From a virus (Duplodnaviria > Caudoviricetes): a stretch of DNA of 53,938 bases. The DNA lies in IMG/VR virus record IMGVR_UViG_3300033146_007470, positions 1-53,938 of that record. One strand, 5' to 3'. The position numbers are program-made. The first letter of the stretch is position 1. The number at the start of each line of letters is the position of its first letter. Shown one piece after another: positions 1 to 3,000 of the stretch.

Positions 1-3000
1 ATGGCAAGAGGAAAAAGAGGCGGTGGTAGAGCTTTAGGCGGTGGAGATGGCTCAGGAACTTGTACTGATGAAGAATTAGCTGCTATGGATAAAGAAGTTG
101 ATGACGTTGCTCGTGATATAATTACTAAAGGACGAAAACCGGTAGGAAGAAAAAGAATAGGTAGTAAAGACGGTTCTGGTGACGGGAGAGGCGATGGTAC
201 TAATTCACGTAACGGAAGTGGAAGACCTGCTGGTGGCAGAGGAAGAAATAGAAAATAAGTCTTAAATTAATAAAAAATTGTTAAAATAAAGCATAATTTA
301 TAATATAATCAAAGATTAATTCTGAAAAAATGGAAAAAAGTTTTACATAAAAAATAGGGATATAGTATAATGGTAGTACACATGGTTTTGGTCCATGACG
401 CGCGGGTTCAACTCCTGCTATCCCTGATGATACTGGTCGCATCATTTTGAGTTTAAATCTTGATAGGCTTGTAAATTTCGTGCACTTATAGTTTAATGGT
501 AAAACGTACGACACACCAGTTGTAAGATGACGGTTCAATTCCGTCAAAGTGCTTAATTTCGTGCATTTATAGTTTAATGGTAAAACATACGACACACCAG
601 TCGTAAGATGACGGTTCAATTCCGTCAAAATGCTTAATTTCATTAAGGAGAATCTATGAAAAAAAATATTATATTATCATATTTAACTTTAAGAAAAGTT
701 ATTGGCATTCTTGCTATAATTTTTCCATTTTTATTAATAATTGGTGGATTTACGGGAGGTCTTACAGGTATTGAACAATCGTTATCTGCTTATTATTGGA
801 CTAATGCAAATATTTTATTTGTTAGTATGCTTGTAACATTTAGTATTTTTCTTTTATCATATAACGGTTATGATAAGAAAGATATGATTTTAACTACTGT
901 TGCAGGTTTAGCAATGCTTTTGGTCGCAATATTTCCTATGACTGGAGGAACAAATTATTTATTTGCTTTCGTTAGTCCAGGAATAACAAGTGCGATTCAT
1001 TATGGGACAGCTACTGTTACATTTGTTTCTTTAGGTATTATGTCTTTCTTTCAGTTTACTAAAAGTGGAAAGCATGAAATTACTATTGCTAAAGGGAAAA
1101 GAAATAAAGTATATAAAATTTGTGGCATTATAATTTTTGCTGCGATTATAGGAATGGTTATAACAATGTTTTTACCTTTTAATTTAACATTTATATTAGA
1201 AAGTATTGTATTAGTGGCTTTCGGTATATCATGGTTAGTTAAAGGTGAGGCTATTTTAAAAGATTAATTTTCATTGCCGTCTTAGCTCAGCTGGCCAGAG
1301 CACGTGACTTGTAAATAAAATTGCACACCTTGTTAGTAATAGCATGAGTGAATGCTCTCAAATTCGGGGAAACCTTTAATATGGCAATCCCGAGCGAAAC
1401 CTTAGAAATAAGGGCCGTGTAGAGACTTAACGGGAGCCATCCTTATAGGATGAAGAGAAAGTCCAGACCACAAACCGTAAGGGCAGTGAAAATTGTAGTT
1501 GGTAAGAATCTCGGGGTCCTCGGTTCGAATCCGAGAGACGGCTTATATTATAATAAAGCATAATTAATAATATATTTAAAAAGATGAAAATCTTTTTTAA
1601 ACTAAAATGATCTTTTAAAATTAAATATAAGGGCTGTGTATGGTCCTCAAAGATAAAATTGGGTAACCAATTTAAAGGGGTTTAAGGGTGACGCCTCCCG
1701 CTGTAGTAATACAGTCTATGTAATAAGGATATTTTCCTTAATAAGGAGGTCAAATATGACTAGCTTGTTCCAAGCTATTATGATGCTTCCTAACTTTATT
1801 TGGTTATGATTTGATGGTTGTAACTTTTTTGCTATAGCAATAGTATCAACTTTATAAATGAAGTTGGGTAACCACCCACTATGTACTTAATTATCATCAA
1901 ATAATTGAGTTTGAATAAAGGTCTGTTGAGCAAAAAGAATTTGAACTGTTAGAAATACTTGCACTTACGAGTGACGGGATTATATAGTGGGTCAAAGAAA
2001 ATAAAGCAACAGATGATACTTTTTATTATATATAAAGGAGAATATGTATTATTATTTATATAAGATAGTTGATACTAAATACAATGCAGAATATATTGGT
2101 GCTCATCAAACATTAGATCTAAATGATGGTTATATGGGTTCTGGTTTGATAATTCAAAATATTATTAAAAAACATGGAATCAATAGACTTCAAAAAGAAA
2201 TATTAAGTTTTTTTAATTCTAAAGAAGAATTATATGCTGCGGAAAAAGAAATTGTAAATGAAGAATATATAAATAGAAAAGATACATATAATAAAATGAT
2301 CGGTGGAATATCTGGTCCTAATCAAACTGGTAAGAAACATTATACTAATGGTACAAAAAATCGATTATTGAATGATTATGATGATATACCAGAAGGATAT
2401 TATTTAGGATGTACTACTAATTATTTAGTAGAAAATAAACAAAAAGCTGGTAGAAAAGCTTCTTTGAATACATTATTTATCAATAACGGTATTGATAATA
2501 AAAGAATAAATAAAAATTTACCAATTCCAGAAGGTTGGAATAAGGGTAGAATAATAAATTATACTATGGATTATAGTGTAATATCTGCAAGTAATAGAAA
2601 TAGTTTTTGGGTAACTAATGGTTTAAAGAATAAAAAAATTAAACATGGTGAAAATATACCTAAAGGATTTAAAAGAGGTAAAACGCAAAAAGTTAAAAAT
2701 AATTAAATAAAGGTCGTTTCGGATCTTTCTTTCGGGAAAAGTATAGTACATAGTAATATGTATAAAGGGGTAAAAGAGTGACGTCTCCCACCAATTTTAT
2801 TATTGGCACATCGAAGCAAGCTGACTTTCCAATGATTTCGCTTCCACGCGGAATTTTTAGAGACATTAGAGAAATGATAAGATGAAATTGTGGCCGACGG
2901 TGGCAATGAATTCTTCTCCGCAAGAGATAGTTTCTATGCAAAACTAATTATTTATGAGAAAGAACAGTAGTTATTTGGTGTGAGCTTTTGCGAGTTAGTG

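What the first reader, a model, noticed from the sequence alone, without database searches (positions are those of the whole stretch)
482..634. Tandem tRNA-shaped RNAs with an 8-nt non-canonical anticodon loop and compensatory changes
Seen: two 81-bp units with normal D and T arms but loop CACACCAG (no U33, 8 nt). The four differences between the copies all respect the fold: an acceptor C-G to T-A pair, a G-U to G-C change, and unpaired position 26. This points to selection on structure. Inference: non-decoding tRNA mimics (nuclease or sensor decoys) or frameshift-suppressor-like tRNAs.
Basis: partly seen in the sequence, partly recalled or inferred. Interest (0 to 1): 0.72.

Follow-up and report, generated by a model that had tools for sequence, protein, structure and literature searches.

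The report
Tandem phage tRNAs, eight-base anticodon loops
A large uncultured phage carries two adjacent, well-preserved tRNA genes whose codon-reading loop has one base too many and lacks the usual uridine, so they either read a four-letter codon or no longer read codons at all, and which of the two is still untested.

Summary
Window 482-553 and 563-634 are two tRNA genes (Rfam tRNA 48.8 and 52.2 bits; ARAGORN 'tRNA-?(Val|Gly)(cacc)') in an 81-bp tandem repeat (474-641, 95% identical, no indels). Both have the 8-nt loop CACACCAG, with no U. D arm, T arm and the usual tertiary-contact nucleotides are canonical. The four differences inside the tRNAs keep every pair, one by a two-sided C-G to T-A change. 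Random substitution gives that in 0.6-2.5% of trials.

Additions: both copies have an A7-A66 mismatch. Folding closes the loop by a C-G pair into a 6-nt loop, ACACCA. The discriminator is U, with G1-C72, C2-G71 and A3-U70, as in annotated phage tRNA-Gly.

I found no orthologue. One other viral contig (L175) carries a tRNA-Gly-derived gene with the same four-base CACC in an 8-nt loop, CUCACCAA.

Against efficient quadruplet reading: in-frame GGU-G is not avoided (110 seen, 124 expected), and no gene in the 54 kb needs a +1 shift. Expression could not be tested.

Best reading (0.35): a glycine-type tRNA with an expanded anticodon that reads GGU(G). Main rival (0.30): a non-decoding tRNA mimic. 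It is a new variant of a known kind, of moderate interest.

The parts
474..641 (+). 81-bp tandem repeat, 2.1 copies, holding both tRNA genes and their 9-nt leader/spacer
   Evidence: Tandem Repeats Finder: period 81, 95% matches, no indels; direct comparison of the two units
482..553 (+). tRNA gene copy 1: 71 nt plus discriminator U, 8-nt anticodon loop, CCA not encoded
   Evidence: ARAGORN tRNA-?(Val|Gly)(cacc); Rfam tRNA 48.8 bits; cloverleaf is the minimum-energy fold, z -3.0
563..634 (+). tRNA gene copy 2, differing from copy 1 at 4 positions, all of which keep the pairing
   Evidence: ARAGORN; Rfam tRNA 52.2 bits; fold z -3.7; differences listed
512..519 (+). Anticodon loop of copy 1, CACACCAG. 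Four-base CACC flanked by CA and AG. No U33. First and last base can pair (C-G).
593..600 (+). Anticodon loop of copy 2, identical to that of copy 1
355..427 (+). Canonical tRNA-Gln(UUG) 54 nt upstream; probably the first gene of the same transcription unit (inferred)
   Evidence: ARAGORN; Rfam 63.8 bits
281..309 (+). Sigma-70-like promoter candidate TTAAAA-17-TATAAT upstream of the three tRNA genes (consensus match only)
   Evidence: 17 such sites were found in 1-3700 against 17.7 expected from shuffles, so this is not evidence by itself.
656..1267 (+). Downstream ORF of 203 aa. It looks hydrophobic, with no Pfam or PHROG family. AAGGAG at 645-650 lies 11 nt after the discriminator base (634) of copy 2. 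This is context, not shown to be functionally linked.
   Evidence: A 55%-identical homologue in metagenome contig L050 is also flanked by tRNA genes, but not by a homologue of this tRNA.

Best explanation
The two genes are intact duplicates, kept by selection, of a phage tRNA of the glycine type whose anticodon has grown from three bases (NCC) to four (CACC).

Inferred course of events:
- They are transcribed with the upstream tRNA-Gln.
- RNase P and a 3' nuclease cut them out, and the host CCA-adding enzyme completes the 3' end.
- Glycyl-tRNA synthetase charges them, because its determinants U73, G1-C72, C2-G71, C35, C36 (and A37 beside them) are in place.
- On the ribosome they pair with GGU followed by G. 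They read it either as an ordinary glycine codon or, at low efficiency, as the four-base codon GGUG with a +1 shift of frame.

Shown: the tRNA architecture, the duplication with pair-keeping changes, the glycine-like acceptor end, and the recurrence of CACC in a second phage tRNA-Gly derivative.

Inferred: expression, charging, ribosome entry, and any frameshift.
For: 1. Full tRNA architecture. Both genes score above the Rfam gathering score and in mid-range among the window's 16 tRNA matches, which span 31.9-66.3 bits. Read: U8, A14, G18-G19, the A15/U48 pair, a purine at 26, and the T loop TTCAATT with G53 and C61 are all present.

2. The differences between the copies keep all 20 pairs. One change is two-sided. 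Random substitution gives this in 0.6-2.5% of trials.

3. The acceptor end is G1-C72, C2-G71, A3-U70 with discriminator U. The annotated tRNA-Gly(tcc) of Gordonia phage Sixama and the tRNA-Gly of Escherichia phage RB16 begin the same way; L175 shares the discriminator U, and's strings the base after the acceptor strand of the two annotated genes is also T, which I did not verify separately. In alignment A1 with 9 phage tRNA-Gly genes, C35, C36 and A37 are invariant across all 13 rows.

4. The best body match among 213 unbiased phage tRNAs is a tRNA-Gly(gcc). Phage tRNA-Gly(tcc) L021 shares the whole D arm and, by my count, 19 of the 21 bases of the variable loop plus T arm.

5. A second case exists. 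L175 326-400(-) lies in a contig with terminase, portal and capsid genes. It is an 8-nt-loop tRNA with loop CUCACCAA. Its body is clearly tRNA-Gly: 11 of its top 30 neighbours are Gly, against 21 of 213 overall. Of the 20 listed BLAST hits in cultured phages, 16 are annotated tRNA-Gly and none carries another isotype.

6. A scan of IMG/VR for any CU-NNCC-AA 8-nt loop gave 23 matches. Only L175 was an 8-nt-loop tRNA, and its NN is CA, as here.

7. Glycine and proline quadruplet tRNAs are charged correctly and function in E. coli, and A37 is preferred (DeBenedictis 2022, PMC9094753; passages read).
Against: - The loop has no U33, which all eight other window tRNAs printed through their anticodon loop have (output cut after the tenth of 16 records).
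- The first and last loop bases can pair. Every fold, including the centroid, shows a 6-nt loop ACACCA, which could not present an anticodon in the usual way.
- In-frame GGU followed by G is not avoided in the phage's own genes: 110 seen against 124.0 expected, among 423 GGU codons in 15,646 codons. An efficient GGUG reader would therefore damage phage proteins.
- No gene in the 54 kb needs a +1 shift at GGUG. There is one weak candidate (20489) among 196 sites for all quadruplets, about the chance rate.
- Body similarity to glycine tRNAs is weak for the window's genes: 4 of the top 30 neighbours are Gly, where about 3 are expected by chance. The second-best neighbour is a tRNA-Val with a similar acceptor stem.
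- No orthologue was found, so conservation of the loop cannot be judged.
- Expression is untested.
Confidence: 0.35

Rival explanations
1. Non-decoding tRNA mimic. The RNA keeps the tRNA body and acceptor end so that it is processed and bound by tRNA-binding proteins. Its closed 6-nt loop without U33 keeps it out of normal decoding. It then acts as a decoy or sponge for a host factor that attacks or senses tRNA (a tRNA nuclease, a toxin acting on the acceptor end, or a sensor), or as an amino-acid carrier for a reaction outside the ribosome. Two copies would raise the dose.
For: - There is no U in the loop, and the C-G closing pair is predicted in the minimum-energy and centroid folds of both copies.
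- The tRNA body is under selection while nothing in the phage's coding sequence reacts to the supposed codon.
- Phage tRNAs are thought to counter tRNA-targeting host defences (van den Berg 2023, PMC10264068; abstract in the search listing).
- Unchecked notes of this scan list several anticodon-less tRNA look-alikes in other phages.
Against: - No target can be named.
- The roughly 30 window proteins scanned include no aminoacyl-tRNA transferase, synthetase or nuclease inhibitor.
- A decoy for an anticodon nuclease should copy a real anticodon loop, and this one copies none.
- The retained C35-C36-A37, and the same CACC in L175 in an open loop with U33, fit an anticodon better than a neutral loop.
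Confidence: 0.3
2. Decaying duplicates. A tRNA gene acquired a one-base insertion and lost U33 before a recent tandem duplication. Both copies are now neutral passengers of the tRNA cluster.
For: - Only five differences exist, so the test for selection is weak. All pairs survive by chance in 9-31% of trials.
- No orthologue with a conserved loop was found.
- The window holds other imperfect tRNAs: tRNA-Gly(tcc) scores only 31.9 bits, and an 87-nt tRNA-Cys exists.
Against: - The two-sided compensatory change has a chance probability of 0.6-2.5%.
- All the tertiary-contact positions I checked are intact in both copies.
- A roughly 5%-diverged contig from another run spans copy 2 without any gap (record 19: 545-937, 19 other letters, 0 gaps).
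- CACC recurs independently in L175.
Confidence: 0.2
3. Processing signal. The tRNA shapes serve only as RNase P / 3'-nuclease cleavage sites that release the downstream mRNA (ORF 656-1267) from the tRNA transcript, so the loop is free to vary.
For: The discriminator base (634) of copy 2 lies 11 nt before the AAGGAG of the next ORF. The homologous ORF in L050 also directly follows a tRNA.
Against: Any tRNA would do this, and it explains neither the duplication nor the CACC shared with L175. In L050 the upstream tRNA is unrelated. Genes interspersed with tRNAs are found throughout this window.
Confidence: 0.08

Closest known systems
sufD-type +1 frameshift-suppressor tRNA-Gly (anticodon CCCC, reads GGGG) and engineered quadruplet tRNAs (Riddle and Carbon 1973, as cited in DeBenedictis et al. 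2022, PMC9094753; passages read)
   Same: A glycine-type tRNA body with an 8-nt anticodon loop that holds a four-base anticodon ending in CC, followed by A37.
   Different: Those keep U33 and arose as laboratory suppressors or designs. Here position 33 is A, position 38 is G and can pair with C32, the fourth base is not a repeat of a neighbouring base, and the genes are natural, duplicated and phage-borne. Activity is untested.
L175 326-400(-), tRNA-?(cacc) of an uncultured siphovirus-like contig (IMG/VR), found here
   Same: 8-nt loop with CACC-A. Acceptor starts GCA with discriminator U. The D stem is identical and the D loop differs by 1 of 7 bases. The variable loop ends AGAT. 48 of 72 positions are identical, and 7 of 21 pairs changed on both sides.
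   Different: Its loop is CUCACCAA: U33 is present and no closing pair is possible. It is a single copy, in a GC-rich phage next to the terminase genes. Common descent and convergence cannot be told apart.
Yeast mitochondrial tRNA-Thr1 with an enlarged 8-nt anticodon loop (PMC4267643; abstract in the search listing)
   Same: A natural tRNA with an 8-nt loop that is kept by selection.
   Different: It reads ordinary triplets (CUN as Thr) and has a dedicated synthetase. It shows that an 8-nt loop need not mean four-base reading.
Natural tRNAs with non-standard loop size 'in a phage that has many relatives', mentioned in Atkins et al. 2016 (PMC5009743; passage read; its references 435 and 436 were not visible)
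   Same: Phage-encoded tRNAs with a non-standard anticodon loop size, not known to cause frameshifting.
   Different: I could not see which phage or which loops are meant. From memory it may be the cluster M mycobacteriophages, but that paper is not held.
Phage tRNAs whose anticodon-loop substitutions evade host anticodon nucleases (van den Berg et al. 2023, PMC10264068; abstract in the listing; a term search of the text found no mention of loop size)
   Same: A phage tRNA with a deviant anticodon loop, lying in a tRNA cluster.
   Different: Going by the title and abstract, those are loop mutations in tRNAs that are still thought to decode, and my term search found no mention of changed loop size. 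Here the loop has an extra base and no U33.
hopR-type tRNA with expanded anticodon that enhances ribosome hopping (O'Connor, Gesteland and Atkins 1989; title seen only in a reference list)
   Same: An expanded anticodon loop that changes how the reading frame is kept.
   Different: It is a laboratory mutant. No take-off/landing pair was looked for here beyond the +1 scan.

Membership tests
Canonical elongator tRNA (Rfam RF00005) | Cloverleaf with acceptor, D, anticodon and T arms, scoring above the family's gathering score | tested here: met
   48.8 and 52.2 bits against a gathering score of 29. ARAGORN calls both. The cloverleaf is the minimum-energy fold. One A-A mismatch at pair 7:66.
Canonical elongator tRNA (Rfam RF00005) | Conserved tertiary nucleotides (U8, A14, G18-G19, R15-Y48, R26, G53-T54-T55-C56, A58, C61) | tested here: met
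   Read directly from the sequence and the ARAGORN drawing in both copies.
Canonical elongator tRNA (Rfam RF00005) | 7-nt anticodon loop with U33 and a purine at 37 | tested here: not met
   The loop is CACACCAG: 8 nt with no U. Rfam aligns 7 residues against 6 of the model in the loop. A37 is present if the loop is counted from its 3' side.
Canonical elongator tRNA (Rfam RF00005) | Mature CCA end and aminoacylation | not testable with these tools
   CCA is not encoded, as for the upstream tRNA-Gln and the intron-split tRNA, the only two other 3' trailers I read. No RNA run holds the locus.
Bacterial-type tRNA-Gly | Identity set U73, G1-C72, C2-G71, (G3-C70), C35, C36 (established knowledge of GlyRS identity; recalled) | tested here: inconclusive
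   U73, G1-C72, C2-G71, C35-C36-A37 are present. Pair 3:70 is A-U, as in the annotated phage tRNA-Gly of Sixama and RB16. Body similarity to Gly is not enriched, with 4 of the top 30 neighbours. ARAGORN leaves Val or Gly open.
+1 frameshift-suppressor / quadruplet tRNA (sufD type) | One extra nucleotide in the anticodon loop, giving four consecutive bases complementary to a four-base codon | tested here: met
   8-nt loop. CACC is complementary to GGUG.
+1 frameshift-suppressor / quadruplet tRNA (sufD type) | U33 and an open loop kept | tested here: not met
   A at position 33. A C-G closing pair is predicted in all folds. L175 does meet this feature.
+1 frameshift-suppressor / quadruplet tRNA (sufD type) | A coding sequence that needs, or reacts to, the four-base codon | tested here: not met
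   One weak GGTG site (20489) among 196 for all quadruplets. In-frame GGT|G is 110 against 124.0 expected. Only 54 kb of a probably much larger genome could be examined.
+1 frameshift-suppressor / quadruplet tRNA (sufD type) | Measured +1 frameshifting | not testable with these tools
   Needs a reporter assay.
Non-proteinogenic tRNA-Gly (staphylococcal cell-wall type) | Weakened elbow and EF-Tu contacts, plus a partner aminoacyl-tRNA transferase (recalled) | tested here: not met
   G18-G19 and the T loop are canonical. No Fem-type or other transferase is among the roughly 30 proteins scanned. The rest of the genome is not available.
Nuclease-evading phage tRNA (van den Berg 2023) | Canonical loop size with substitutions at nuclease recognition positions; a cognate host nuclease | tested here: inconclusive
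   The loop size is changed (not met). Host and nuclease are unknown (not testable).

The most novel reading that the evidence does not exclude
CACC tRNAs are a natural, recurrent class of phage-encoded four-base (GGUG) decoders derived from tRNA-Gly. This phage keeps two copies, and an unrelated siphovirus-like phage (L175) keeps one in the textbook CU-NNNN-AA format. They would drive a programmed +1 shift in a gene outside the 54 kb seen here, or deliberately corrupt host translation. That would be the first natural quadruplet-decoding system in viruses.
Probability: 0.12. Interest if true: 0.85.

Novelty: new variant of a known kind. Interest (0 to 1): 0.5.

Why it matters
Nearly all tRNAs in nature keep a 7-nt anticodon loop with U33. 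The few natural exceptions are the raw material for questions about how the reading frame is held and whether four-base codons are ever used outside the laboratory.

Here a phage keeps two copies of a structurally sound tRNA that breaks both rules, and a second, unrelated phage carries the same four-base CACC on a glycine tRNA body.

If these RNAs are charged and reach the ribosome, they are natural starting points for quadruplet decoding and may mark a hidden recoding event. If they do not, they add a minimal kind of tRNA mimic, differing from a working tRNA in little more than the anticodon loop, to the phage-host contest over tRNA. Either answer is within reach of simple experiments, because the gene is only 72 nt long.

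Tried and rejected
**Expression.** No RNA holder was listed among the public runs, so expression, ends and CCA could not be examined.

**Public DNA runs.** Four DNA runs were laid: coded X1, labelled marine sediment metagenome, and X2-X4, labelled hydrothermal vent metagenome, from two studies.
- They hold short contigs of the same or a close phage.
- Contigs stop inside the repeat (X1 67-515, X2 49-494).
- One contig, about 5% diverged, spans copy 2 without gaps (X3 545-937).
- The table was cut, so I could not see which letters differ inside 563-634.
- One of these runs may be the window's own source.

**Orthologue searches that found nothing useful.**
- megablast and blastn against 50,697 phage records. 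With E up to 10, only partial matches to tRNAs of several isotypes appeared.
- IMG/VR pattern of loop plus T loop: 1 hit, GC-rich coding DNA, no tRNA.
- IMG/VR pattern of D arm plus T loop: 24 loci, all canonical tRNAs of many isotypes.
- IMG/VR pattern of D arm plus anticodon stem: 2 coding hits.
- JGI metagenomes, pattern of loop plus T loop: 0 hits.
Both picocyanobacterial loci I checked (L059, L066) are two-piece tmRNA, and the many others in the list are presumably the same. None of the 9 other loci checked has a tRNA at the match. This scan is therefore not a valid negative.

**Synteny.**
- The downstream ORF has no relative in IMG/VR.
- It has 4 relatives in metagenomes. The best, L050 (55% identity), has an unrelated tRNA at the same place.
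- The PurA-like protein found only relatives at 42% identity or less.

**Rarity.** 0 of 272 ARAGORN tRNAs in the 173 loci held at that point had a four-base anticodon.

**Antisense target.** The full complement CTGGTGTG occurs once elsewhere (30033, in-frame GGT GTG in the PurA-like gene, which needs no shift). TGGTGT is not enriched: 20 seen against 14.3 expected.

**L175.** No GGTG signal: GC-rich DNA gives many long off-frame ORFs, and in-frame GGT|G is 19 of 35.

**L176.** Its loop is ACACCAU on a body of no clear isotype. I do not count it as a family member.

**Other.**
- 'Relatives' cannot be drawn for a virus record.
- Pope et al. 2014 is not held.
- The first paper search was badly posed.
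- Supplementary files of papers were not consulted.
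Full report
**What the window is.** The 53,938 bases are the whole assembly held for this record, and it is a virus record.
- It is AT-rich, 30.9% G+C.
- It is densely coded, almost all on the + strand: 98 of my 110 crude ORF calls.
- It is cut at its right end inside an ORF, with no terminal repeat.
- About 30 proteins scanned against Pfam or PHROGs are auxiliary genes. They include PAS histidine kinases, a macro domain, STAS, an ATP-grasp, a radical SAM protein, a C39 peptidase, HGPRT, a PurA/PurZ-like synthetase, homing endonucleases, a ClpB-like gene in pieces, a NadR-like protein and NAD synthase. No structural or translation protein is among them.
- It holds 16 ARAGORN tRNA genes, a GOLLD RNA and a group I intron.
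- I read it as a fragment of a large phage.
- Short, near-identical contigs occur in public DNA runs labelled marine sediment and hydrothermal vent metagenome, from two studies. One of them may be the source sample.

**The observation.** It is confirmed in every point that can be read from sequence.
- ARAGORN as tRNA-?(Val|Gly) with the four-base anticodon cacc.
- Rfam's tRNA model scores them 48.8 and 52.2 bits against a gathering score of 29. That is mid-range among the window's 16 tRNA matches, which span 31.9-66.3 bits.
- The Rfam alignment shows a regular cloverleaf. Its only faults are one residue too many in the anticodon loop and a non-standard pair 7:66.
- The two genes lie in an 81-bp tandem repeat: 474-641, 2.1 copies, 95% matches, no indels.
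- The 81-bp units differ at five places. One is in the spacer and four are in the tRNA.
- The four in the tRNA are the two sides of acceptor pair 4:69 (C-G to T-A), nucleotide 26 (G to A, unpaired), and position 40 (G-U to G-C).
- Both copies keep all 20 standard pairs.
- The loop CACACCAG (512-519, 593-600) has eight bases and no uridine. All eight other tRNAs that one search printed through the anticodon loop have U33, and the nine others shown are drawn with 7-nt loops (its output was cut after the tenth of 16 records).
- D loop, T loop, U8, A14, G18-G19, the 15-48 pair and purine 26 are canonical.

**Is it more than chance?**
- I put four random substitutions on copy 1 in 200,000 trials. 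All pairs survive in 9-31% of trials, depending on transition bias. All pairs survive together with a two-sided compensatory change in 0.6-2.5%. This is real but modest evidence that both copies have been held to the fold since the duplication.
- A contig about 5% diverged, from a third run, spans copy 2 (545-937) with 19 substitutions and no gap (record 19). The odd loop length is therefore not an assembly slip peculiar to this record. Which letters differ inside the tRNA was not shown.
- Eight-base loops are rare in the comparison material: 0 of 272 tRNAs in the 173 loci held at that point.

- Pair 7:66 is A-A in both copies. The energy model instead makes a 6-bp acceptor stem and a 6-bp T stem.
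- The first and last loop bases are C and G. Every fold (minimum-energy, centroid, and the isolated arm) closes them, leaving a 6-bp stem and a 6-nt loop ACACCA.
- The discriminator is U and CCA is not encoded. The two other tRNA 3' trailers I read, tRNA-Gln and the intron-split tRNA, also lack an encoded CCA.
- A canonical tRNA-Gln lies 54 nt upstream. A promoter-like TTAAAA-17-TATAAT lies before it, but such sites are no more frequent here than in shuffles.
- The discriminator base (634) of copy 2 is followed after 10 nt by the AAGGAG (645-650) of a 203-aa ORF that looks hydrophobic and matches no family.

**What kind of tRNA is it?** The acceptor end is G1-C72, C2-G71, A3-U70 with U73.
- U73 with G1-C72 and C2-G71 is the bacterial glycine identity set. 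That is established knowledge, recalled here.
- An A3-U70 pair in that setting is seen in the annotated tRNA-Gly(tcc) of Gordonia phage Sixama and the tRNA-Gly of Escherichia phage RB16.
- Counted from the 3' side, the loop reads A34-C35-C36-A37. In an alignment with nine phage tRNA-Gly genes, C35, C36 and A37 are invariant over all 13 rows.
- Phage tRNA-Gly(tcc) L021 has the same D arm and a nearly identical variable loop and T arm. That locus was fetched with a D-arm pattern, so its D arm says nothing.
- In an unbiased set of 213 phage tRNAs, the best body match is a tRNA-Gly(gcc).
- Only 4 of the top 30 matches are Gly, where about 3 are expected. The runner-up is a tRNA-Val with a similar acceptor stem.
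- Glycine type is therefore the better guess, because of U73 and CC-A. A valine origin (CAC read from the 5' side) is not excluded.

**Relatives.** I found no orthologue.
- The searches were sequence searches of cultured phages, three IMG/VR pattern scans built on the gene's own loop, D arm and stem, and a JGI metagenome scan.
- They gave only chance hits or canonical tRNAs of many isotypes.
- The downstream ORF has a 55%-identical homologue on metagenome contig L050, again among tRNA genes. The tRNA at the matching place there is unrelated.

**A second CACC tRNA.**
- A looser scan asked for GGTA, 12 bases, CACCA, then a T loop. It gave 59 matches in 57 loci. Two of them are tRNAs.
- L175 326-400(-) is a tRNA-?(cacc) with the 8-nt loop CUCACCAA. 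Rfam scores it 51.4 bits. It lies beside small-terminase-like, large terminase, portal, protease, scaffold and major head genes.
- Its body is plainly tRNA-Gly. 11 of its top 30 neighbours are Gly, against 21 of 213 overall, and the four best are all Gly. Two of those four were fetched by similarity to it.
- Of the 20 listed blastn hits in cultured phages, 16 are annotated tRNA-Gly and the other 4 carry no annotation at the matched place.
- Compared with the window's genes it shares 48 of 72 positions: the first three acceptor pairs, U73, the D stem and 6 of the 7 D-loop bases, the AGAT of the variable loop, and 6 of the 8 loop bases. Seven of 21 pairs changed on both sides.
- A further scan for any 8-nt loop of the form CU-NNCC-AA gave 23 matches. 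Seven are ARAGORN tRNAs. Six of those are canonical (five Gly(gcc) and one Val(tac), matching through an offset D loop). The only 8-nt loop is again L175.
- So in IMG/VR the only glycine-type loop of that form found carries the same two extra-position bases, CA, as the window's genes. That is a 1 in 16 coincidence if the two are independent, or a conserved feature if they share descent. Either way it suggests that CACC is not arbitrary.
- The other tRNA hit, L176 (loop ACACCAU, C33), is the only tRNA of a complete 61.7-kb phage. Its body has no clear isotype, and I do not count it as a relative.

**Tests of decoding.**
- If the RNA read GGUG efficiently, the phage's own genes should avoid GGU followed by G. 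They do not: 110 observed against 124.0 expected, among 423 GGU codons in 15,646 codons of 110 crude ORF calls. GGU is the commonest glycine codon, 423 of 938.
- I scanned both strands for places where a long open frame meets a long +1 frame at a given quadruplet. That gave 196 sites over all 256 quadruplets and one for GGTG (20489), which does not join two called genes.
- The full complement of the loop occurs once more, in frame in the PurA-like gene. That gene is complete without a shift.
- The same checks on L175 are uninformative because of its G+C content.
- Nothing in 54 kb therefore calls for a four-base reader. The late genes are not in the window.

**How it most likely works.** I commit, at 0.35, to a translation-competent glycine-type tRNA with an expanded anticodon.
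- It would be made from the tRNA operon, completed by host enzymes, and charged by GlyRS.
- It would pair with GGU-G, mostly as a poor triplet reader and occasionally shifting the frame by +1.
- In its favour: the preserved synthetase-facing features, CC-A in the loop, and the L175 parallel. The L175 loop, CU-NNNN-AA, is from memory the form selected in laboratory four-base suppressors.
- DeBenedictis et al. 2022 (passages read) report that Gly and Pro quadruplet tRNAs stay correctly charged and that A37 is preferred.
- Against it: the lack of U33, the predicted closure to a 6-nt loop, and the negative coding tests.

**Rivals.**
- Non-decoding mimic (0.30). This would be a tRNA body that is processed and bound but kept off the codon. 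It would serve as a decoy for a tRNA-directed host factor or as a carrier outside the ribosome. The closed, U-less loop and the doubled dose fit this. The absence of any nameable target, and the anticodon-like CACC shared with L175, do not.
- Neutral decay (0.20). The compensatory change, the intact tertiary positions and the gap-free diverged contig oppose it, but only five differences underlie the test.
- Pure processing signal for the downstream mRNA (0.08). It explains too little.

**Comparison with what is known.** See the closest-known list and the membership table.
- The genes work like, and formally resemble, sufD-type suppressors and engineered quadruplet tRNAs. They fail two of that family's features, U33 with an open loop and a responsive coding sequence. 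I therefore do not file them as members.
- Yeast mitochondrial tRNA-Thr1 shows that an 8-nt loop can read triplets (abstract).
- Atkins et al. 2016 (passage read) list 'tRNAs in a phage' among the few natural exceptions to standard loop size and say none is known to frameshift. I could not see which phage is meant, and the paper I suspect is not held.
- My searches found no paper describing a phage tRNA with a CACC anticodon or a U-less 8-nt loop. Subscription journals and supplements were not searchable.
- The scan's earlier notes hold nothing on this DNA or on look-alikes. Notes on other phage tRNA look-alikes exist but concern different designs.

**Verdict.** This is a real, unusual pair of tRNA genes, most likely functional, of undecided function. 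It is a new variant of a known kind, natural tRNAs with an expanded anticodon loop. Interest is 0.5. The recurrence of CACC in two unrelated phages and the ease of testing raise it. The lack of orthologues, of expression data and of any coding signal holds it down.

Noticed in passing
window 3077-3547 (+): GOLLD RNA (Rfam RF02032, 187.8 bits, full-length match) with a tRNA-Glu(ctc) gene (3153-3226) inside it.
   Followed up: no
window 1270-1546 (+): A tRNA gene split by a group I intron (Rfam Intron_gpI, 67 bits, at 1300-1487). Read by eye, the exons join at about 1314|1508 to give a tRNA-Thr(UGU)-like molecule with a U-U mismatch in the anticodon stem and discriminator U. ARAGORN does not call it.
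   Followed up: partly
window 1560-2040: About 480 nt without an ORF between the intron-bearing tRNA and the next gene. Parts (1554-1713) are held at high identity in contigs of other runs. This may be an unrecognised structured RNA. No other Rfam family reaches E <= 1 in 300-1700 or its gathering score elsewhere in the window.
   Followed up: no
window 40067-45458: A ClpB-like chaperone gene in three pieces: Clp_N 40067-40777, AAA D1 41841-43196, and AAA D2 with a Hint-domain match 44271-45458. Minus-strand ORFs lie between the pieces, which suggests intein or homing-element insertions.
   Followed up: no
window 28204-30175, 48711-49736, 53056-53856: A nucleotide and NAD metabolism set: HGPRT-like, adenylosuccinate-synthetase-like (the PHROG family is named after the 2-aminoadenine pathway enzyme), a NadR-like cytidylyltransferase-NUDIX protein, and NAD synthase.
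   Followed up: no
window 3611-5773, 7649-8239 and 8664-9473: Phage-encoded signalling proteins: a receiver-PAS-PAS-HisKA_2-HATPase hybrid kinase, a STAS protein (7649-8239) and a second HisKA_2 kinase.
   Followed up: no
window 12457-12543 and 12662-12738: Other irregular tRNAs: an 87-nt tRNA-Cys(gca) with an extra arm, and a tRNA-Gly(tcc) with a mismatched T stem that scores only 31.9 bits.
   Followed up: no
L050 1-1720: The nearest relative found (metagenome contig, 55% identity in the ORF downstream of the tRNAs) has two short-variable-arm tRNAs with anticodon UAA (349-423, 1325-1397). By eye it also has two tRNA-like stretches (about 66-150 and 260-340) that neither ARAGORN nor Rfam calls.
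   Followed up: partly
L176 204-278 (-), record G001: A 61.7-kb viral contig rated complete has a single tRNA, with loop ACACCAU (C33, anticodon ACC) and a body of no clear isotype.
   Followed up: partly
L059 1823-2140 and L066 (checked); many other picocyanobacterial loci listed: The motif CACACCAG-N13-GGTTCRANTCC falls in the tRNA-like part of the two-piece tmRNA in both picocyanobacterial loci checked. Such matches presumably filled the genome scan.
   Followed up: yes
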